The notes beneath the pieces were generated by a model. The model ran no database searches. It was not told the DNA's origin and was given only the letters and a program-made list of their open reading frames with translations. Shown one piece after another: positions 1,851 to 49,809 of a stretch of DNA of 64,000 nucleotides (positions are counted from its first letter, which is position 1; each line of letters opens with the position of its first letter). Position numbers and translations under genes: made by a program. This DNA comes from Rhina ancylostomus (Eukaryota): the NCBI GenBank assembly GCA_030265395.1, contig JARFYF010000094.1, forward strand, positions 29,416,901 to 29,480,900, read 5' to 3'.

Positions 1851-3302
1851 GCCCAATCTTCATTAAAGTACTTCATTAAAAACAGGAGATTGATGGTTGC
1901 ATTTTAATCGATCATTGCTCTCCTCAATCTCACGATTTGCCATGAGGGTAAAACAGATAAAACTTGTGGTACAAACAAATAAAGGAGGTTTTTAATCTAG
2001 TAAGAGACGATAACTTTTGACATTTCTCTGAAATATCTCCAACATATGTAAGTATGTATGTGAAACAAGATGTTGTGGCTTAATTACTGACAGGATGGAG
2101 ATCAACCAAATGAGACTGTGAAAGGGAATTTATCATTGGCATCAGATTCAATGAAACATGTCCCTTAATGAGAGATTTAAAAGTACAGATTTTCTACTGT
2201 GATGCATAAACACCAGCGTTTTGAGTCAGAACTACTGATCACGAGGGCTGCACTTAATCGAACCTAATAAGGTCAGAACTCAGCTGAGAGAGAGAGAAAG
2301 AAAAGCAAATGAAAACATATCGTCATCAATGGGGCGTCTGCAATTTAGAGCTGTCAAGAGAATGTCCACAGGGAGAAGTAAAATGACAGCAGAAAAATTA
2401 CCAAGAGGCTCTCTACCAACTTATGTTCAGTGCTACAACCTCCAAGTCCCTAATATAAAAACAAAATTAAAAAAACACTGTCAGTTTTGGGTTTGAAGAA
2501 TATTTTATAAAACCATAATAACCTCCTCCAACCTCTTGTTTCATTAAGACAAAATGAAAACTTTGTTTCAAGTTTTCAGTTCCCATTGGCCTCCAATTTG
2601 GAGATCCTTTAAAATCTGGAATTCCAGTTTATAACCCAGAAATGTTCAAATTCTAGATTACAGATAACTGTTAAAATATCTGCGTGTGAACTATCAAAAG
2701 CTAGGTCCTATCTGTTACTCAGCTTCCAGAACTGCATGTAATTTTTTTGTACAGTATTAAGGTCATATCCACGAGTGACAGGATCTTGTAGTAACAAAAT
2801 GCAGAAGTCAATATTTTCAGTCCTATCTTCTGTCTACAGAAAGATGGAGCTGTGCCATCCATATTTTCCTCTCCTTACCGTGCTAAATATTTCTAAGTTT
2901 TATTTCTAATGTCAAAATTGTTCCCGTCTTTTTATTTAGAAAATTGGAATCACATTTACTCATTTCCTCTCATCTGTGCAATTCTCTTTTGCAGAGATGC
3001 TCAAATTTGAGGTCCGTAGATTTTTGCACTCCTACAGAATCAGTGAGGCAAAAAGATGGATTGGAGATTAATACTAAATGATTGTGAAACTTGAGGCCAA
3101 GATCTGCTTGAACAGATTGATAGTTGCAGAAGTGTTGTGATTAATGGATGCCCAAGGGAAACTGGGGTTTTAAAAATGCAATTACAAGTAATTTTGGAGA
3201 AAAAATGTCTAGGATCACCATATAAAGAATGAGGTTTTGAAGAGAGAATTTTGAAGAGAGACATTTAAGAACAAAGTCATGCAAGGTAGTGATAAAAGAT
3301 GG

Positions 3303-3765
3303 AATAAAACAAAGAATACTGGAAATACTTATTGGGTCAGACAACATCCATGCAAGCAGGGCTAGCATTTCAAGTTGGTGACCTTCAATCAGTTATGGGA
3401 AAAGATACCAATGACAGAAGTGTTAACACTGCAGAGAAAGTGAGAATAGATCAAGAGAAGCCCAGAAAGATGGAGAGTGAAAAAAATAATTGCTGAAATT
3501 GTGAGATGGAGTCGCTAATTATCTGAAATAAATGCTGAGCCCAGGCGGCTCTATTTTGCCTCGTAAGATGATGAAATGCTGATCCTCAAAGTTGTGTTGG
3601 GCTTCACTGGAATAGAGTAAAACGTCAGATACAAGTTGAGAGTGGGAGTCACAGACATTCAGTAGCTCAGGTTAATTCTTGCCAACAGAACAAAGGTGTT
3701 TTTCAAAGCAGTGATGCAAAGGTGTTTTGTTTCCTCAATATCAAGGAGATCACATTATGAGCACA
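3303..3765 (-). mobile_element. Penelope-like retroelement 3' fragment: decayed GIY-YIG endonuclease plus terminal repeat
   Basis: Minus strand reads CS*CDLLDIEETKH / HCFEKHLCSVGKN*PE and SSEAQHNFEDQHFIILRGKIEPPGLSIYFR*, matching PLE CxxCGLLYIGETKR...FAEHLRSV and EAQRKLEEQHLIFRLGTLQPxGLNIEF. A decayed hammerhead-like terminal repeat follows at 3361-3394. Confidence 0.8.
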
Positions 3766-5470: not shown

Positions 5471-8140
5471 GTTCTTGAGTGCCAGCTATTGTTGCATCAT
5501 AATGTTGTGTGGTTCTTATACTCTTCTCTCATGAAAACACCTTTGAATGCTTTTCTACATTTCAGGAGTCCTGAACTTCACTAGTTAATGGAAACAAGCT
5601 GTTACACTGGAACCTCCACTGATCAATGACAGCACTAAGCTATCAGCTCTGGGGTGACTTGGTTTGCCACAGAAACCAGCTTCAGAGTTTTGAACTGCAG
5701 TCCAAGATGTCTTCAACTATTGGATCAGGGAGTTGGAGACTTATTCTAATCATCGATAGCTCTGTTATAAATATATTACGATATCTTCAATCCGAAGAGT
5801 CTCATTCCCTGGTCTGAAGCAACTGGAAAATGTATTTCTCAAACCCTTACACAATACTTTCCATTGCATTAGAATGCTACCATTACTCACTGCACATTTT
5901 AATTCCAAGTATTATATCACAGAGTAGTAACACATCTGGTCACTGGCATGTTTCTTTTCTCTCTGAAATATCTTTTGTGTGAAGTACATGGATAGCTTCA
6001 CTGAAGCTGATGGGAATTTTGATGAAAAGTACTTGCATTTCCTCAAAATTGTGTTTAATACTGTAAAGCAAAAAAAGTGACGGAGGGGAAACCTACCAAA
6101 TTTCTCCTGAGCTGCTAATTTTCATCATCAGACATTCTAGGTTAAGTAAAGAAATGCAAAACTAAACCAAAACATCAACTAACCTTGGGCTCCATGGCTT
6201 ATCACCAGCACAGACCATTGAGTAGGCAAACAGTCTTCACTGGATTAGGGAATGATGTGGAGCATGAATAGAGAAAGACATTAAGAAAATAAATTACCCT
6301 GTCAATAAAATTACTCAATGATTGAGAAGCTTANNNNNNNNNNNNNNNNNNNNNNNNNNNNNNNNNNNNNNNNNNNNNNNNNNNNNNNNNNNNNNNNNNN
6401 NNNNNNNNNNNNNNNNNNNNNNNNNNNNNNNNNNNNNNNNNNNNNNNNNNNNNNNNNNNNNNNNNNNNNNNNNNNNNNNNNNNNNNNNNNNNNNNNNNNN
6501 NNNNNNNNNNNNNNNNNNNNNNNNNNNNNNNNNNNNNNNNNNNNNNNNNNNNNNNNNNNNNNNNNAGATTGGTTGAGCCAAACAGCATGTTTCCACAGAG
6601 TTATTCTTTTGTCATTCTTGCCGCAGGTGTTGGACAACAATTAAGGGTCTTGGCCCAAATTCCTCTCTACAACCTTGTGGTGCTGGGGCCAATTGTTGTA
6701 CCACTACTGAGAAATGAAGCATCAGGAGAACTCAAACGTTTCCTTGAATGTGGAAAATATGTGAAAATAGATGCAGCTGCATTTCTGTGAGGAAGTTCTG
6801 TCAGGAACAAAAAAAAATTCTTATCTCAGTCCTTTACCCAGATCTTCACACTGTCTGCTCAGTTACATTTTCAAAATACCTCTGACCATTTAAAGGAGCA
6901 AAGATTAGTGTTATTATTATATAGTTTAAAAGACTTGGGGGTGGGGGGGGAACTGTCATTGCACCAGAAGATATGTCTAACAGTTCATCTATCATGTCCA
7001 TCACCTGACTGGTTCTCCAATCACGGGAAATACTTAAGAGTGACAGATATTATCATTATGAACTGATACACATTTGCTGTATTTGTGAATAATGAAATAA
7101 AGCAGGCAAGCAAAATGCAGGAATATGTACTTAAAATCTGCTCAACATATTCCCATTGAAGCATGAAACATAGTGATAAATATTTACTGGAACTCCACAA
7201 TACCAACAACTCTCTACTAGGCAGTAACGAGGCAAAAGACTTTTACTCCACAGATTTTTTTCATGATGAAATGTACAACATGATACATAACCTTTTTGTT
7301 ATTCCCACCCGCCTACCTGCCATGCCTCAACATATTACAATAATGTTTAGTCTATCAGCATTTCGAACAGCAACAGATCATGTTGTCAAATTATGAGAGG
7401 TGAGCTAAAAGCTAAGTGCTTCAGGCAAAAGGGAATATGTGATCAAAAACGGACAATGCTGTGTCGAAGTTCATCAGCCAACACTGGCTTCATCGGACAC
7501 GTCCCAGGAAATGACATCAGTAACAGGCACATGNNNNNNNNNNNNNNNNNNNNNNNNNNNNNNNNNNNNNNNNNNNNNNNNNNNNNNNNNNNNNNNNNNN
7601 NNNNNNNNNNNNNNNNNNNNNNNNNNNNNNNNNNNNNNNNNNNNNNNNNNNNNNNNNNNNNNNNNNNNNNNNNNNNNNNNNNNNNNNNNNNNNNNNNNNN
7701 NNNNNNNNNNNNNNNNNNNNNNNNNNNNNNNNNNNNNNNNNNNNNCCTTTTGTCAACTGAAATTCAAATCTAGAGCATCAATCGATGGAAAATCCTTGTA
7801 TAAAGAAGCTGGACTGAACTAATTTTCAGTGAATACAGAGAAAATGACAATTATGAATATACTCCAGACTTTTGCTTACTTGAATGCATATGGTACAAAT
7901 ATCACAACAGAAGAACTAGTTTCAAAGTATGAAAAAAAACTCGCCATTCCTCATAACAGTGAACAAAAATAGAAATTTATGCAACAAACTTGGTTTAACA
8001 AATCACTTTGGCATAATTTATTAAGTCTGAATGTTCAAGTGGCAAGTGAAGAATAATTCTCTCCAGGAGGATACGCCATGTTACTCACAACAACACATTG
8101 AATCTCTGAACTCTGGAATACACCCTGTTGTGCAAAATTT

Positions 8141-8232
8141 TCTGATGGGAGATCATCAACCTGAAAGGTTCCCTCTGTTCCCACCATTAGATGCTGCATT
8201 TGAACATTAGCAGCATTTTCAGTTTTACTTCC
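8141..8232 (+). mobile_element. PLE terminal repeat fragment with decayed hammerhead motif
   Basis: tctgatgggagatcatcaacctgaaaggtt...agatgctgc...cagcattttcagtttt, homologous to the copies at 20300 and 31298. Confidence 0.65.
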
Positions 8233-8534
8233 AATGACAAAGTCGGCACCAATGATACATCACCACAAGCAATCCCATGAGGTACATAACAAGTTCAATA
8301 TTATATATCCCCCTTTGGTGAAATTAATTCTGGGTTATTAATGTTGCTGTTAAAAACACTTAATATTAAAGAAATAAAATAAAACTCTTGTCACAAAAAA
8401 CACCAAGTTTATAAACTGCACCCTTTTTTAAAAAAAAGTTTTATGACTCCAGGACTCTTATTCCACATGTTGCATTTTTTTCCATTAACCTCAGTCATTC
8501 CAGGAGTCAGAGTGGTCATTTTATGTGGTAAGAA

Positions 8535-9058
8535 CCCATTATAGGAAGGATGTTGAGGCTTTGGAGAGGGTGCAGAAGAGGTTTACCAAGATTCTGCCTG
8601 GATTAGAGGTCATGTACTATGAGGATAGGTTGGACAAACTTGGATTGTTCTCTCTGGAGCAGCGGAGGCCGAGGAGATATCTGATAGAGGTTTATAAGAT
8701 TATGAGAGGCATAGATAGAGCAGACAGATAGTATCTTTTTCCCAGGGTTGAAATGCCTAATACCAGAGGGCATGCATTCATGATGATAGGGTGCAAGTTC
8801 AATGGAGATGTGCGGGGCAAGTTTTTTTTAAAACACAGTGGTGGGTGCCTGGAATGCACTGCTGGAGGCAAATACAATAGGAGCACTCAAGAAACTCTTA
8901 GATAGGCACATGAATGTGAAGGAAATGGTAGGATATGGACATTGTGTCAGCAGAAGGGATTAGCTTAGTTGGTCATTTTATTACTAATGTAATTAAAGCA
9001 GCAAGACATTGTGGGCCGAAGGGCCTGTTCCTGTGCTGTACTGTTCTATGTTCTATGT
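8535..9058 (+). mobile_element. CR1 LINE, 5'-truncated (RT C-terminus, 3' UTR and tail)
   Basis: ORF HYRKDVEALERVQKRFTKILPGLE..YEDRLDKLGLFSLEQRR..LIEVYKIMRGIDR is the CR1 ORF2 C-terminus. It ends in gggccgaagggcctgttcctgtgctgtactg(ttctatg)2. Confidence 0.95.
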
Positions 9059-9964: not shown

Positions 9965-10455
9965 GGGCAGCACACTGGTGCAACTAACAGAGCTGCTGTT
10001 TTACAGCTCCAGTGACTCAGGTTCAATCCCGTCCCCATGTGTTGTGTGTTTGAAATTTGCACATTCTCCCTGTGACCTCGTGGGTTTCCTCCAGATTCTC
10101 CGGTTTCGTCCCACATCCCAAAAATTAGCTGGGTGGTGGGTTCATTAACCACCATCAATCACCCTGTAGTTGAAGGCTAGAATCAAAGGGGGGAGAGGAA
10201 GGTTGTTCATTCGGANNNNNNNNNNNNNNNNNNNNNNNNNNNNNNNNNNNNNNNNNNNNNNNNNNNNNNNNNNNNNNNNNNNNNNNNNNNNNNNNNNNNN
10301 NNNNNNNNNNNNNNNGGGGAGAGGAAGGTTGTTCATTAGGATGTGGGAGATTAAAATGGGATTAGTGCAGGATTAATGTAAAACTAAAATGGGTGCTGGG
10401 TTTGTGGTGCAGCGTCAGTGGGCCAAAGTACCTGTTTCCATGCTGTACGGTTCTA
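9965..10455 (+). mobile_element. tRNA-derived V-SINE (HE1-like) with CR1-type tail, interrupted by a gap
   Basis: Head gggcagcacactggtgc...ggttcaatccc (B box), V-domain tttgcacattctccctgtgacctcgtgggtttcctcc...cggtttcgtcccacatccc, tail gtgggccaaagtacctgtttccatgctgtac. Confidence 0.9.
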
Positions 10456-11184: not shown

Positions 11185-11468
11185 AAAAGCAAAAGTCTGC
11201 AGATGCTGGAACTCTGAAATAAGAACAGAAAATATTGAAAATACTTCAGATTAATCANNNNNNNNNNNNNNNNNNNNNNNNNNNNNNNNNNNNNAGTGAG
11301 GATTGCGAGGGAAAGATTCCACGACCCCAACAATGGTCAACAATGAACCTTGTCCGATACCTGAAAAACTGGAAATCTAAAATCAGTCAGAAATTGGAAC
11401 TCTGTTTCTTGCCACAGAGATGCTACCTGACTGCCTGCATATTTTCAGCATTTTCTGTTGTTTATTCC
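11185..11468. mobile_element. Inverted pair of PLE terminal repeats with spacer and gap
   Basis: Minus arm ctgcagatgctggaactctgaaataagaacagaaaatattgaaaatact; plus arm aactctgtttcttgccacagagatgctacctgac...cagcattttctgttgtttattcc. Confidence 0.7.
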
Positions 11469-27612: not shown

Positions 27613-27859
27613 TTTTTAAAATTTTATTTACAGCATGGTAACAGGCCCTTCAGGCCCAATGAGTCCATGCCGCCCATTTTAAACCCCAAATTAACCTACC
27701 TGTACGACTTTAGAATGTGAGAGGAAACCGGAGCACCCGGAGGAAACCCACGCAGACATGGGAGAACGTACAAACTCCTTACAGACAGCGACGGGAATCA
27801 AACCCTGATCGCTGGCGCTGTAACAGCATTGTGCTAACTGCTACACTACCGTGCCGCCC
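27613..27859 (-). mobile_element. Young, short V-SINE with recognisable Pol III A and B boxes
   Basis: Minus strand GGGCGGCACGGTAGTGTAGCAGTTAG...GGTTTGATTCCC...GGAGTTTGTACGTTCTCCCATGTCTGCGTGGGTTTCCTCCGGGTGCTCCGGTTTCC...GAAGGGCCTGTTACCATGCTGTAAATAAAATTT. Many CpGs are retained. Confidence 0.95.
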
Positions 27860-30730: not shown

Positions 30731-30904
30731 TTATTTACAGCAATGACAACTATAGATCAACAAGTAACTGACTACTCACCCAAATATAACATGTTAAACA
30801 CCAAATATTATAGCTACATCTTCTTTACTTCACTTAATTCAATCTTAGTTCCAGAATGGCAGGTGAGTTCAATTAACAACTTGTTTGAAATTTGTTTGAA
30901 TATG

Positions 30905-31427
30905 GTCTTATGGTCTTAACATAGATTTCGCTAACCACTGTAAACCCCACCCCTATTTTTCTTCCCCCACCCCTTTGTCTTCCTTTATTCCTATGGGTCC
31001 TTTCCCCCACCTTGATGATCTGCCCATCTCCTCTCCTCCCCTTCCCCATCCTTTATTCCATGGTCCACTGCCTTCTCCAACCGGATTCGTTCTTCTTCAG
31101 CCCTTAGCCTCTTCTACCTATCAGCTTATTACATCTTCTNNNNNNNNNNNNNNNNNNNNNNNNCATCCCCCACCCACTACATTCCCCCTCTCACCTAGAC
31201 TCACCCATCACCTGGACTCACCTATCCCCTGCCTGCATGTACTCCTCCCCCTCCCCCCACTTTCTTACTCTGGCTTCTGCCCTCTTCCTTTCCAGTCCTG
31301 ATGAAGGGTCTTGGCTCGAAACATCAATTGTATTTCTCTTCATAGATGCTACCTGACCTGCTGAGTTCCTCCAGTACTTTTAGGTATTGTTCCAGATTCC
31401 AGCATCTGTGGAATTTCTTGTATCTCT
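30905..31427 (+). mobile_element. Penelope-like element 3' end with the best-preserved terminal repeat
   Basis: Starts ggtcttaacatagatttcgctaac (GLNIDFAN, end of the GIY-YIG ORF). C/T-rich UTR, then ccagtcctgatgaagggtcttggctcgaaac...catagatgctacctgacctgctgagttcctccag...ccagattccagcatctg. Confidence 0.9.
31293..31330 (+). ncRNA. Minimal type I hammerhead ribozyme motif within the PLE repeat (mutated copy)
   Basis: CAGUC-CUGAUGA-A-GGGUC(UU)GGCUC-GAAAC-AUC-AAUUG. Catalytic boxes are intact, stem II pairs, and stem I pairs at 4 of 5 positions. Activity is not shown. Confidence 0.65.
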
Positions 31428-33099
31428 GAAATCAGTCTGAGGATGCTTCTGACACAGTATTTCCACTTACATGCTTTATGTTAGAGATTTACTAGTGATA
31501 GTTAATTGCTCTTCAGCATATATACTTGAAACATAAATGTCAACAATTTCCATTAGAAGTATAACAGCATTGCAAAGTGAGTGCTAAGCTTGAGCTGAAG
31601 TGTCAGTTCCATACTACTGGAATTTTTCACTATTTCATCTGATTTTCAGCGTTGTCAGGATAGTACATCGGTTGCTGAAACATCAGTGTCAGCTGCCATA
31701 CAATGATCGTAGCAAGAGACCAACACTCCTCTGTAATGAAAAACTGATTATTCACAAGCCTTAACCTGTGCCAGTTGTGAGCCGACCTAACTGCAATGTA
31801 CAAATTGAGCATTGCCATGCAGAACTGCCATGAAAAGATATTTTTCATTGTTTGCATAGTTTCAGGCCAGCAGAGCATGGAATCTTGACAAAACCAGCTT
31901 GACCCTGGCTTAGCAATGCAACATGATTGAGAATCTTGTGAATTAATGACATGGTTCCATATCTGTGACCAATCAACGTGGCCTTCCTGAACAAGCCTTA
32001 GTGCCTTGGAATGGAGGCTTTATCCAAAATTGTTTTCCCTGTATCCGGCTACAGATCCCAGAAGTGAAACTTCATTGGAGTGGCCAAATCAACTACTACA
32101 CTTACTGTTCATGCACATTTCTTTTAATGGGCAATGACAAATTGGCTATGAGTTGTGGATCACGATATAAAACAAGGTAAAGAAGATTAAGTAGCATTAT
32201 TTTAAATTCAAAAACCATTCAATGCTAAAACACCAGCATTAAATACTCATTCTTATACGAGATGTTTTTTCACTCTTTTTCTTTTAGCAATTCAGCTGTT
32301 TATCTGGAGATTGACAATATACAAAAGAAATAATTGGTGCAAATTAAATATTATTTGGTTCCACAAAGTATAAAGTGCATTCAGACACCTCACTCAAATC
32401 TTTTCCCAAATCCTTTTAAAAATGTTTTCACACCTTCTATTTACAAATGCTCAACCTCACACTATGCCAATAAGCTACACGGAAGTATAGCTGCTGATAT
32501 ACGGTACATACCTCATGCATGGTGTCTTTTTCTCAAAGCATTAACTGCCATTGCAGATGGAAATAAATCTTTGATTTTAGTTGTAATAGTAATAATTGTT
32601 ATTTCTGAGTTGTATATTGAAACTGGCAGGCTTATTCTGATCTTTAATGTTAAAGATGTTAATCTTAAACTCTCTCAAATTGCTTTTTCATAACATTGGT
32701 ACTTAATAGTGTCTAAAGTCAAAGGAAAACTTGCACATAAAACACAAAGTTAATACACAGCCACAGCACAGAGAAATCATTGCAAGGGGGTTGACATCTT
32801 GCTGCAACTCAATGGAGCTCAGTGAGATCACATCTGGAATACAGTCTGCACATTTTGATGCTGTACCCAAGGAAGAATTGCTGAGAAATCTTTCCCAAAC
32901 AGTAATCTCAAAGCCAAGGGAGCATGTGCACTTTCAAAACTTAATTAAAACAATTCAACGAATTTTAGACTTGGCATACCCTACATATAAATAGCCAAGG
33001 AAAAATTTCCTCCTTGTCAATCCACTCCAGGAGCCAAACATCACTCTGTGTTTGAGTAATACAAAGGATGGTTGAGAATGAAGACAGAAATTCTTACTA

Positions 33100-33305
33100 A
33101 AAAGCAAAACACTGTAGGGGCCGGAAATCTGAAATAAAAACATAGTGCAAGAAATACTTAGCAATTCGGGCAGCACCAAAGGAGAGTGCAAGAGCTAATA
33201 TTTCAGATGAATGACCTCTCATTGTTTCACTAACCTGAAACATTAGCTGTTTCTCTCACCACAAGTGCTGCCTAACACACTTGAGCATTTTCTGCTTTAA
33301 TTCCA
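33100..33305. mobile_element. Fused inverted pair of PLE terminal repeats
   Basis: ggaaatctgaaataaaaacatagtgcaagaaatacttagc...gctaatatttcagatgaatgacctctcattg | tcactaacctgaaacattagctgtttctctcaccacaagtgctgcct...gagcattttctgc. Confidence 0.75.
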
Positions 33306-36300
33306 GAGATTCACATGTTCATCACAAGCTTTGCAGAATTCAAATTCAAATCTAGATTGCTCATGAAAAATATAACATTGAGAATATGACAATTTTGAAA
33401 TTAAAAAAAGCACTTGTTAATCGATATCTGATCAATAAAGTTGGGTTCATGTTCCCGGTATTGCACTCGATCATCAGCTTGTTCATTTGAACATTTAACT
33501 ATCGTTCCCCTTCTGATTAACCATCTCTGCACTTTGAACAAATGAAAACTGCTTTGAAGAGTTAGGAATATATTATTTTAAATATTATATTTAGCAATGC
33601 AGTCATTAACGGAGCATAGCTTCATCTGGTTCCTTTTATATTTCACCTTGAATGTGGTGGGGGACTGTTTTAAGAAACTGCTAACCTCTGTTTGATTTTG
33701 CACTTTTACCAGTCTATTCTCTGCGAGTTGCTCCCTTTATTTATGATTCTTACTCAGATCTTCTCAGTGTGTGTGGATATCAGTCCTTCATTTCAAAAGG
33801 TCAGATCTGACACTTGCCTGGCAGCTTCTTGCATTGTCAGCAGAGTGAGCTTTCAGCCTGTGTGCTTGTGTTGCTACAAGATGATTCCCTGTTGCCTTCA
33901 GTCTCTCTTTATCCTGGTATTGACCTCAATTATAGACAGTAACATATCTAATTATATAATACAAGTTGTTGTTGTCTATGTTTTTTTATATAGTTGCCCA
34001 AAAATATATAATTTCTTTAATGCAGTGAAAAAACCTGTTGAACTTTGTTGGAGTATGACCAAAAAAAAATGATCAGAAAACCAGTGACCACCATAGTCTT
34101 TTCACTATGTTGGTTCTCTCATATTTTATCAGAGTTACTAGATTTTATTTTCTTCATGACAGAATATCATGTACCTTTTTTTTTAAAAGGAAAAGCATCA
34201 CAGCATTCACTCCCAGGCAACACTGGGGTTTTCTTTTCTGTCAAGTGTTTCACTGTACAGCCACAGTTATTCTTTAATAATCTTCAAAATACAGGGAACT
34301 CCCAGAGCCATGCACACAGCCAAAGTATCGGCCAGCCAACACAATAGCGTCAGTGCTGACGGCTGGAAGTTCAAATGTGACTCATTTGAAAACAAGCCGA
34401 CAGCTTTGGTTAACTCCCATCATTTGCATGCTGAAAACAATGAATGTGGAGCATTAAGACAAGGATTGAACAAGCTTTGTTCTGAGGCATAAAGCAATTC
34501 CACTTCTAGAAACATATATACACGAGTCTTCTCCAGCTCTTTGGTACCAATACCATAATTAAATTCTTTCACAGAAGGCATTCTAGACAAAGTGGCCAAG
34601 AGAATGCAGGAGGAAACAGGTACTCTGGGCTTCTTGGGAAGGTTAAGAAACATGTTGGAAGGGGAGTAAAATACTGCAAGATGATGATATCACATAAATC
34701 CTTCAAGGCATCCCTCCAATTGAGCCAATTGAGACGGGTTGGTGTATAGCAGGAGCCGGTATTGCCTGAACTGTATCACGGACAAACAATAAAAAGGCAC
34801 CCAACTAGGAAAGGTCAAAACATGAACTTGATTACCTCAAAATATTCTCGTTTTAACATTTTAAAAAATCATACTCCTTGCCTCAAACACAATTTTATAT
34901 TTTCGGGCAACTGTATAAAAAAAGTGTTGTTCTTGGAATATGATCTGTATCCTTGGTACATATTTCNNNNNNNNNNNNNNNNNNNNNNNNNNNNNNNNNN
35001 NNNNNNNNNNNNNNNNNNNNNNNNNNNNNNNNNNNNNNNNNNNNNNNNNNNNNNNNNNNNNNNNNNNNNNNNNNNNNNNNNNNNNNNNNNNNNNNNNNNN
35101 NNNNNNNNNNNNNNNNNNNNNNNNNNNNNNNNNNNNNNNNNNNNNNNNNNNNNNNNNNNNNNNNNNNNNNNNNNNNNNNNNNNNNNNNNNNNNNNNGAAG
35201 TCCAGTGCCAGAATTCTTCAATATTCCTGGCTGTAATCTTTCAATCTTTCACTGGCATCAAAAGAAAATCCATACAAGCCAGATATAACAAAGCCTGAAA
35301 ATATTAAATCTGTATGTGGCTATTGAAAGTAATAACTTAGCATTCTTTCTATGCTTGGCCAACCCATAAAAAGGCACACATGGGCCTGAATTTCCTCGAA
35401 TGCACTTATGGAAAACTTCCACTAAAATGGATGGCCATTTCTGCACCAACCTTTCTGTGGAATTCATTTTCTGCACAAAAACATTTAAGAACGTGTAAAC
35501 CGTAGAAAGGAAACATAATTCATCATGGAAATATACTGAGCTGCCACCCTCAGCCCTCAATGCCAGAGCTTCCGATCTTTCCCGCTGTTCTTCCACGAGC
35601 ATATTCATTTAAAAAAAGCCATTCCCACTGCTTAATCCTTGATCTCACCAGGAGTGAGGCTCAGAACACTCTGGTTAAATGTAGTCAATAAATGCAAAAA
35701 GAATCTCTCAAATTCCAGAGGACTCAGTTATCGCAGTTGTAAATGACTTCAAGGCTGTGGTATGATTAATTTATGGGGCATAATCTAAAGTTCTGCATTG
35801 CTTGCATAACTCCTGAAAACTGGTGAACAGGTACCAAGCATAGGGTGGTGAGAGCGTAAATGAATGGCACAGGAATTTAGCAGGCACCTCTCTGAGGCAA
35901 CTTGAACTGCTGAGAAAATCTGCCCACTGTGCTTTATGCAAAACCAGGCAAATCCAGTTATGCATCAATTTCTTGCCATACAGTAATTCCAGGGAACATC
36001 TAGACCCAACTTCAGGGTATGGCAGCCTCAGCGTTTCTTCCCTATGTCATAGAAGTGCAACAAAGACGAGAAGGTGAAATTCCTTTCAACTGTTTAACTG
36101 TATTGAACAGAGATGAAGGCAATGTAATACATGCTATATCTCACAGACTATTCACAGTTCCAAACATAGTTATTCTTCATTGGTGATGCATTTCATGACA
36201 TCATTCATATTTCTTTAACATGATACATTATCAAGCTCCATCCTTATGTCTTTTTCAACAAAGCAACTTGATGTTTCAGCTTTTCACGTTGCTGCCTCAT

Positions 36301-48481: not shown

Positions 48482-48779
48482 CAGAGACACAAGAGATTCT
48501 GCAGATGCTGGAATCTGGAGCCACACACACAAAATGCTGGAGAAACTCAGCAGTTCAGACAGCATCTATGGAGAGAAATAAACAGTCGACATTTCGGGTC
48601 TCAACTGCTTATTGCTCTCCATAGATGCTGCCTGACCNNNNNNNNNNNNNNNNNNNNNNNNNNNNNNNNNNNNNNNNNNNNNNNNNNNNNNNNNNNNNNN
48701 NNNNNNNNNNNNNNNNNNNNNNNNNNNNNNNNNNNNNTGACCTGTTGAATTCCTCCAGCATTTTGTGTGTGTCGCTTCA
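48482..48779. mobile_element. Fused inverted pair of PLE terminal repeats (younger subfamily)
   Basis: acacaaaatgctggagaaactcagcag...cagcatctatggagagaaataaacagtcgacatttcgggtc | tcaactgcttattgctctccatagatgctgcctgacc..ttcctccagcattttgtgtgt. Confidence 0.9.
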
Positions 48780-48914
48780 AAAGCTATTGTCATAGCTGAT
48801 AGATGGGAGGGAACTAGAACTGTGGGAAGACTCTATTGACAGAACTCATGGTGGATAGCAATTCATTATCAACTGGCCACCTTCCTGATATGCTCATCAT
48901 TAGCATCCATTCCA

Positions 48915-49544: not shown

Positions 49545-49635
49545 ATATTCAGATAAAGGATCTCAATGTAAAATGACAACTGTCCATTTCCCTCCACAGA
49601 TGCCTGAGTTCCTCCAGCATCTCATTTGTTGCTTC
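49545..49635 (+). mobile_element. Decayed PLE terminal repeat
   Basis: cagataaaggatctcaatgtaaaatgacaactgtccatttccctccacagatgcctgagttcctccagcatc. Confidence 0.65.
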
Positions 49636-49809
49636 AAAAAAAAACTTTGACAGCCAACCAAGCCACATCCCTCAACTTGCCACCAACCAAAGCTGTTGAA
49701 TTGCCAATGAATGTATTTGATTGCTTTGTATTTCTCTTGAGAAATGCCAGCAGTTTACCTCATGATTGTTTGGTTCTTTGGATCTCCAATCTAAGTGTGC
49801 ATGAACATG

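What the first reader, a model, noticed from the sequence alone, without database searches (positions are those of the whole stretch)
31293..31330. Hammerhead ribozyme motif in the Penelope terminal repeats, with compensatory stems across copies
Seen in sequence: CAGUC-CUGAUGA-A-GGGUC/GGCUC-GAAAC-AUC-AAUUG here; CUGAUGA-A-AGGUC/GAUCU-GAAAC-AUU-AACU at 20300-20332; GACCC-GAAAU-GUC-GACUG on the minus strand at 48583-48600; and decayed copies at 3361, 8142, 14768, 20105-20139, 21615-21645, 33195 and 49550. Stem II differs between subfamilies (GGGUC:GACCC versus AGGUC:GAYCU) while pairing is kept. Stem I in the first subfamily is CAGUC:GACUG. Established: PLE terminal repeats are known to carry minimal type I hammerheads with a palindromic, almost loopless stem III, proposed to act as dimers. 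Inference: the ancestral motif was GAAACGU(C/U), CpG decay degraded most copies, and an extra A follows CUGAUGA. This very abundant elasmobranch repeat would then spread ribozyme-like motifs about every 6 kb in this window.
Basis: partly seen in the sequence, partly recalled or inferred. Interest (0 to 1): 0.75.

Follow-up and report, generated by a model that had tools for sequence, protein, structure and literature searches.

The report
Decayed shark Penelope hammerhead copy
This is the leftover end of a very common Penelope-type jumping gene in what is likely a shark or ray genome; it carries the tiny self-cutting RNA motif already known from such elements, and this copy, like almost all others sampled, has mutated and is predicted to be unable to cut.

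Summary
It is the minimal type I hammerhead (min-HHR) of Penelope-like elements described by Cervera and de la Pena 2014. Here it lies in the pseudo-LTR of a Neptune-type element, joined to an RT/GIY-YIG ORF. Six subfamily clusters share the core; two base pairs differ compensatorily between them, from about one lineage split.

The copy at 31293 has lost the palindrome and the pair beside the cut site, so it is predicted dead. In 718 kb sampled, 88 copies span the motif, 14 keep core plus helix II, and 1 also keeps ACGU with a 3-bp helix I. Cores decay about as fast as tails (0.120 vs 0.144, p=0.06). Pieces occur every 4.5 kb, but exactly intact motifs only about once per 1.15 Mb.

Two side observations: copy 5' ends pile up at the helix I edge rather than at the cut site, and subfamilies with altered cores (U4A; C before A9) amplified. 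Earlier scan notes report the same element in other shark/ray genomes. Ordinary.

The parts
30908..31428 (+). 5'-truncated copy of a Neptune-type Penelope-like element (subfamily A1): last endonuclease codons, 3' UTR/pLTR, min-HHR, tail
   Evidence: Homology to 29 genomic copies begins at about 30908 and ends at about 31428; 86-89% identity to the best genomic copies; same order of parts as L067. No convincing target-site duplication (only a 6-mer).
30912..30935 (+). Last codons of the GIY-YIG endonuclease ORF (GLNIDFAN), followed by a small indel
   Evidence: Translation; matches the C-terminus GLNIDFSN of L006/L021/L067
31293..31330 (+). Decayed minimal type I hammerhead: core intact, palindrome ACGU>ACAU, C.A mismatch at pair 1.1-2.1, two added G.U pairs; predicted cut site after C at 31325
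   Evidence: constrained fold -2.0 vs -10.2 kcal/mol for the intact natural copy L181, and helix III duplex +3.4 vs -1.7
31331..31428 (+). Tail downstream of the ribozyme = start of the element's ORF (ATG at 31346, M-L-P-D-L-L-S); holds the two preferred 3' ends
   Evidence: Open frame from this ATG through the tail into the ORF N-terminus in natural copy L228; 3' ends at about +97 and +123-125 from C3 in subfamily C
20298..20403 (+). Short subfamily B1 copy starting at the helix I edge; core and 5-bp helix II intact, ACAU, helix I 2 bp
20020..20140 (-). Decayed B1 copy
21536..21746 (.). Head-to-head inverted pair of B-type pieces joined inside the ribozyme
33114..33325 (.). Head-to-head inverted pair of decayed B2 pieces
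48485..48785 (.). A-type copy on the minus strand starting in helix II (no CUGAUGA), with its inverted partner on the plus strand, interrupted by N
3299..3395 (-). Decayed B2 copy
8140..8251 (+). Decayed B2 copy
11197..11468 (.).
14755..14884 (+). Decayed B1-like copy
49550..49641 (+). Decayed A2 copy with the U4A-type core start

Best explanation
The motif is a minimal hammerhead ribozyme sequence in the end repeat of a Penelope-like retrotransposon, and this copy has lost its ACGU palindrome and the base pair next to the cut site, so it is predicted to be inactive. In the active master elements, two hammerheads of a tandem transcript would likely pair their ACGU palindromes to form helix III and cut slowly after GUC or GUU, probably helped by the element's own protein (inferred from published Schistosoma and Anolis work). 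Reverse transcription likely starts about 100 or 125 nt downstream of the core, inside the first codons of the ORF, so nearly every insertion, however short, carries the ribozyme as a passenger. After insertion the copies decay, first at CpG, at about the rate of the neighbouring tail.
For: Shown: contiguity RT > thumb > CX4CX2C linker > GIY-YIG > 3' UTR > motif > tail in L067. Relatives carry PF00078, PF26215 and PF01541. The EN fragment matches a GIY-YIG protein at 40% identity, E=1e-19. The motif fits the published min-HHR consensus letter for letter. Two 3' ends about 30 nt apart, like the PLE tail in PMC11167929. 24 head-to-head inverted pairs among 158 sampled pieces, a known PLE arrangement (PMC8557442). 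Partial tandems with two motifs 270-430 nt apart exist. Non-CpG substitution rate: core 107/893 vs tail 563/3901, p=0.06. Lesions of this copy. Inferred: dimer cleavage and protein help (PMC4209133: monomer inactive, dimer weak; PMC11167929: cleavage only with protein, not needed for insertion in vitro).
Against: No cleavage or RNA data for these elements; no RNA runs could be examined. Cores are slightly better conserved than tails (0.120 vs 0.144; in cluster A2 9/126 vs 83/570), which may be detection bias but is not excluded as weak selection. Subfamilies with U4A or a C before A9 amplified (23 and 15 of the first 100 of 1,163 matches), so catalysis may not be what was selected in every master. 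No full-length intact element with both ends was found in this gapped assembly; L255 has the ORF start, RT, EN and 3' motif but no 5' motif.
Confidence: 0.85

Rival explanations
1. The fold is kept in the masters for a non-catalytic reason, as the 5'-terminal structure of the element RNA (protein binding, translation of the ORF that starts about 20 nt after it, or template jumping); cleavage is weak or dispensable.
For: 5' ends pile up at -6..+2 of C3 rather than at the cut site (+27/28): 26 of 112 sampled copies at -5..0 against 4 at +26..+29; subfamily C 5 of 18 non-gap copies, 3.6 vs 0.8% per nt, p=0.012; partial tandems 8 of 23, 4.3 vs 1.1% per nt, p=0.003. Core-variant subfamilies amplified. 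HHR mutants do not affect insertion in vitro (PMC11167929).
Against: C3, G5, A6, G8, G12, A13, A14, A15.1, U16.1, the ACGU palindrome and an NUH triplet are kept in all six clusters, while N7 and N17 vary. That is the pattern of a catalytic core. U4 is reported as comparatively tolerant (PMC4075628; U4C in PMC3088659). A circular-RNA template would also leave no peak at the cut site.
Confidence: 0.1
2. A meaningful share of dispersed copies cut host transcripts or have been exapted.
For: About 1,900 exact intact core-helix II-ACGU copies exist genome-wide, and partial tandems place two motifs a few hundred nt apart.
Against: Solitary min-HHRs need a partner and are inactive as monomers (PMC4209133). 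Eight of nine Xenopus dimer elements did not cleave (bioRxiv 2026.07.22.740005). Decay is near neutral. This copy is broken, and no host coding ORF was detected among 29 window ORFs of 100 aa or more (short exons would be missed).
Confidence: 0.04
3. The motif is a chance resemblance inside a repeat of another kind.
For: Rfam has no hit; the isolated window sequences fold no better than shuffles (z 0.08 and 0.02).
Against: Exact fit to the published consensus at the expected place in a PLE; compensatory pairs between subfamilies; zero control matches.
Confidence: 0.01

Closest known systems
Minimal hammerheads (min-HHR) in pLTRs of metazoan Penelope-like elements (Cervera and de la Pena 2014, PMC4209133; fugu Xena, coelacanth, Xenopus, reptiles)
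   Same: Type I, core CUGANGAH with an extra nucleotide before helix II, GAAAN-palindrome-NUH with no helix III loop, short helix I, U-rich flanks, several consensus families with compensatory changes per genome, mostly dispersed truncated copies, inverted pairs.
   Different: Host is a cartilaginous fish, which is not among the species in the supplementary alignment part read. Helix II is only 4-5 bp. The B subfamilies have G.U or A-U instead of G10.1-C11.1. U4A and C-before-A9 subfamilies. Copy number about 2.4-2.7 x 10^5 motif-spanning pieces by extrapolation.
Neptune/Nematis-type EN+ Penelope-like elements (PMC8557442)
   Same: [quoted passage not shown]
   Different: Clade placement rests on the linker motif, not on a tree; no (TA)n targeting was tested.
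Poseidon element of Anolis carolinensis (PAc; PMC11167929)
   Same: Ribozyme at the pLTR-ORF junction; two RT start sites inside the ORF's first codons that give the tail.
   Different: In PAc the ORF starts at helix II; here the first ATG shared by the subfamilies lies about 20 nt after the cut site. PAc activity was measured; these elements' was not.
Non-LTR retrozymes of animals (bioRxiv 10.64898/2026.07.22.740005)
   Same: PLE-derived repeats with type I HHRs a few hundred nt apart; reported in one chondrichthyan genome.
   Different: The partial tandems seen here have a different junction in each copy, so they look like individual insertion products, not a fixed-unit tandem family. The window copy is solitary.

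Membership tests
PLE minimal hammerhead (min-HHR) | Core CUGANGA(H) ... GAAA | tested here: met
   Window copy; majority state in the clusters, except a C in place of the first A after G8 in cluster D and U4A in part of A2
PLE minimal hammerhead (min-HHR) | Helix II and helix I pairing | tested here: met
   Met in the subfamily majorities and in natural copies such as L181. In the window copy, pair 1.1-2.1 is a C.A mismatch.
PLE minimal hammerhead (min-HHR) | Palindromic 15.1-16.1 tetramer without loop 3 | tested here: met
   ACGU in the family. Not met in the 31293 and 20300 copies themselves (ACAU).
PLE minimal hammerhead (min-HHR) | Covariation supporting the helices | tested here: inconclusive
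   Score 0.252, 0 of 500 shuffles, 24 sequences. But 22 of the 24 were picked by patterns that demand helix II, and the changes trace to about one split between B and the other subfamilies.
PLE minimal hammerhead (min-HHR) | Self-cleavage after NUH as a dimer | not testable with these tools
   Needs an in vitro assay; no RNA reads were examined
EN+ Penelope-like element | RT plus C-terminal GIY-YIG in one ORF upstream of the pLTR | tested here: met
   L067 (RVT_1 E=4e-4, below the curated cut-off; ORF frameshifted), L255, relatives; subfamily C via L223; subfamily B via L301/L302
EN+ Penelope-like element | pLTR/partial tandem, inverted 5' copies, optional tail | tested here: met
Neptune clade | CX2-5CxxC zinc-finger-like linker between RT and EN | tested here: met
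   CNHTKCYTC in L067 and similar in others; the motif is shared with Nematis according to PMC8557442
Neptune clade | Placement in an RT phylogeny with reference PLEs | not tested
   No named reference set was on hand
Non-LTR retrozyme | Tandem array of fixed units each with an intact HHR | tested here: not met
   Window copy is solitary; two-motif loci have variable junctions

The most novel reading that the evidence does not exclude
The element RNA begins at the first base of helix I (an initiator-like YCAGUY), so the hammerhead is the RNA's 5'-terminal structure. Reverse transcriptase runs off or jumps template there, which explains the pile-up of 5' ends and of tandem junctions at that spot. 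Subfamilies with U4A or a C placed before A9 spread alongside canonical ones, so hundreds of thousands of elasmobranch copies record a natural test of which hammerhead core positions retrotransposition needs.
Probability: 0.25. Interest if true: 0.5.

Novelty: new member of a known kind. Interest (0 to 1): 0.17.

Why it matters
Little as a discovery: min-HHRs in Penelope end repeats and their mass dispersal in fish, amphibian and reptile genomes are published. The value is as material. The role of PLE hammerheads is still open (PMC8557442, PMC11167929), and this genome offers six related subfamilies with about 1,900 exactly intact motifs, natural core variants, natural two-motif tandems, and a 5'-end hotspot that could mark the RNA start. 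These allow simple in vitro and 5'-end mapping tests.

Tried and rejected
Rfam scan: no hammerhead hit. Pfam on the EN fragment alone: no hit; the assignment came from relatives. An apparent 998-aa open frame (L076/L081) was a run of N. Free folding of single motifs does not give the hammerhead and is no better than shuffles for the window copies, so it counts as no evidence either way. The idea that U11.1 in subfamily B is CpG decay was rejected (TG 47, CA 2, CG 2, TA 4, other 4 of 59). A footprint of cleavage as a peak of 5' ends at the cut site was not found (4 of 112 at +26..+29; inverted junctions spread from -48 to +53 relative to the cut site). A fixed-length retrozyme-like mini-family was rejected because junctions differ. 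Post-insertion selection on the core was not detected (p=0.06). A target-site duplication for the window copy was not convincing. No host-gene ORF was found among 29 of the 59 window ORFs of 100 aa or more; the others mostly contain N or lie in repeats and were left out. One search used a structure shifted by one column and was redone. Expression and in vivo cleavage remain unexamined. Lunse et al. (PMC5785218) was not held and is known by title only.

Full report
Observation. The sequence at 31293-31330 is as described: a helix I strand CAGUC, the core CUGAUGA, an extra A, helix II, GAAA, CA, U, C, then AAUUG. The 20300 and 48600 sites are present, and profile searches recover all the other sites named plus tail-only pieces, 17 pieces in all in the window. 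Controls are clean: 129 hits at E<1e-3 in 717,715 non-N bases against 0 in the reversed sequence. Rfam has no hammerhead match at E<=5.

What the repeat is. Thirty genomic relatives of the 31293 copy (86-100% identical, including itself) share a sharp 3' end about 100 nt past the motif and ragged 5' ends. The longest run into the end of an ORF. Locus L067 holds, in order, RT motifs, thumb, a CX4CX2C linker, a GIY-YIG-type endonuclease, a pyrimidine-rich 3' UTR, the motif and the tail. Pfam sees RT only weakly there, but 28 longer relatives, all with precomputed PF26215, most with PF00078 and three with PF01541, were found; the closest named ones are bamboo shark proteins at 57-60% over about half the query. 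Rescanning three of them gives RT and/or GIY-YIG, and the EN fragment aligns to the GIY-YIG of P0009. By the linker criterion in PMC8557442 (passages read) this is a Neptune-type Penelope-like element; no tree was built. The window copy is a 520-nt 5'-truncated piece, 30908-31428, starting in the last endonuclease codons. The 20300 subfamily also lies 290-350 nt behind a GIY-YIG ORF end in L301 and L302, two of 30 loci chosen by its upstream sequence, and subfamily C does so in L223. The sequence after the tail continues into the ORF N-terminus, and L255 carries that N-terminus, RT, EN and a 3' motif. The tail is therefore the start of the ORF and the repeat is a pseudo-LTR.

Subfamilies and covariation. 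Clustering 210 motif-spanning copies, 88 of them from regions picked blind, gave six groups at K=6; K=5 and K=7 were also run. Per-position counts show a common core, a 4-bp helix II closed by G10.1-C11.1 in A1, A2, C and D, and a 5-bp helix II closed by G.U or A-U in B1 and B2. Helix I is CAGUC:GACUG in A1/A2, GUC:GAC in C/D, and AGUU:AACU in B. N7 is U or A and N17 is C or U, both tolerated positions. U11.1 in B1 is a real master state (TG 47, CA 2 of 59), whereas the same dinucleotide in A1 shows CpG decay (CG 20, TG 9, CA 19 of 52). On 24 natural copies the named structure scores 0.252 with 0 of 500 shuffles reaching it; pair 1.1-2.1 is C-G 8, U-A 6, and pair 10.1-11.1 is G-C 14, A-U 5, G.U 5. 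This is weaker than it looks: 22 of those copies were picked by patterns that require helix II, and the changes trace to about one split. Counts in A1 and B1 lean towards the window queries used to find them.

How many are intact. In 804 kb picked blind (717,715 non-N) there are 158 pieces, one per 4.5 kb. Of these, 88 span the motif; a descriptor finds 14 with core plus helix II, 7 with a pairable tetramer, 3 of those with a helix I of 3 bp or more, and only 1 with true ACGU; the reversed control gives 0. Extrapolation gives about 4-5 x 10^5 pieces genome-wide. Exact patterns count 1,750 intact 4-bp-helix motifs and 164 intact 5-bp-helix motifs, about one per 1.15 Mb; helix I was not required and variant cores were not counted. 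Non-CpG substitution is 107/893 in cores and 563/3901 in tails (p=0.06), so no clear selection after insertion; requiring a hit across the motif biases towards better cores. The window copy differs from its subfamily majority at five places, three at CpG, including ACGU to ACAU and G1.1 to A. Its constrained fold is -2.0 kcal/mol against -10.2 for natural copy L181, and its helix III duplex is +3.4 against -1.7.

Mechanism. Shown here: position, architecture, subfamily changes, decay, two 3' ends about 30 nt apart, 24 head-to-head inverted pairs among the 158 pieces against 3 tail-to-tail among all 338, and partial tandems with two motifs a few hundred nt apart. Inferred from papers: dimer-dependent weak cleavage (PMC4209133; parts 1-2 of 4 of the main text and part 2 of supplement 2 read); protein-assisted cleavage that is not needed for insertion, and internal RT initiation that makes the tail (PMC11167929; parts 1-2 of 4 read); eight of nine Xenopus dimers inactive (bioRxiv 10.64898/2026.07.22.740005; parts 1 and 3 of 5 and passages read; its supplements not seen). 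Because copying starts just downstream, the motif rides in almost every insertion, which explains its abundance without any host role.

Side observations. First, 5' ends cluster at the helix I 5' strand: 26 of 112 at -5..0 of C3 against 4 at +26..+29. That count is partly inflated because A2 and B2 had no upstream consensus of their own, and 46 of the 158 pieces dropped out on score, gaps or edges. Two cleaner samples agree: subfamily C, 5 of 18 copies after 12 of 30 ending at N were dropped (p=0.012), and A1 partial tandems, 8 of 23 after 7 of 30 without a clear second repeat were dropped by eye (p=0.003). The window for these tests was chosen after seeing the first sample. The site reads (Y)nCAG, which fits either an initiator (consensus recalled) or a 3' splice site; in Drosophila virilis Penelope the intron ends at helix I (PMC4209133) and transcription starts 46 bp before the intron (PMC2377424, passages). 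Second, among the first 100 of 1,163 matches, position 4 is A in 23 (C 4, G 1) and position 9 is C in 15 (T 5, G 2), so both transversions mark amplified subfamilies. U4 is described as comparatively tolerant (PMC4075628, part 1 of 2; PMC3088659, passages). A search for U4A/A9C found nothing relevant, but Lunse et al. on PLE hammerhead variants could not be read (title seen in PMC6765202).

Novelty. The class is published, including the extra nucleotide, the palindrome, the compensatory families and mass dispersal. Searches for a shark-specific report found none (terms hammerhead, Penelope, shark, chondrichthyan), though the 2026 preprint reports HHR retrozymes in one chondrichthyan genome, and repeat libraries were not available. 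The scan's own notes record this element many times in other shark or ray genomes, with nothing near this window and nothing on the 5'-end hotspot under the words tried. Verdict: a new member of a known kind, a predicted-dead copy, interest 0.17.

Noticed in passing
All subfamilies; e.g. window 20298, L227, L231, L239, L240, L241, L250: 5' ends of copies and junctions of partial tandems pile up at -6..+2 of C3, at a (Y)nCAG just at the helix I 5' strand, about four times the upstream rate; no peak at the cut site. Possible RNA start or splice acceptor.
   Followed up: partly
Genome-wide; window 49550: Amplified subfamilies with altered cores: U4A (23 of 100 listed matches) and a C between G8 and the next A (15 of 100).
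   Followed up: partly
window 31346 onward; L228 and L020: The conserved tail after the ribozyme is the ORF start (M-L-P-D-L-L-S...), open into the N-terminal region in natural copy L228.
   Followed up: yes
L256 1429-1995, L272 4117-4681, L258, L260, L263, L264, L274: Partial tandems with two same-strand motifs 270-430 nt apart and a different junction in each; natural candidates for dimer cleavage assays.
   Followed up: partly
L195-L224: 12 of 30 subfamily C copies run into N just upstream, several right at the helix I edge; these may be assembly gaps at fold-back junctions, but masked stretches cannot be told from gaps.
   Followed up: no
window 30900-30918: An 8-nt direct duplication at the 5' junction of the window copy; no clear target-site duplication.
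   Followed up: partly
window 9994-10152, 21125-21283, 27709-27828: A second dispersed repeat family (72-82% alike, both strands), unrelated to the Penelope repeat; not identified.
   Followed up: no
window 9005-9041, 20966-20995, 46437-46473; 16479-16557 and 17073-17153: Short repeated pieces of other kinds seen in the self-comparison.
   Followed up: no
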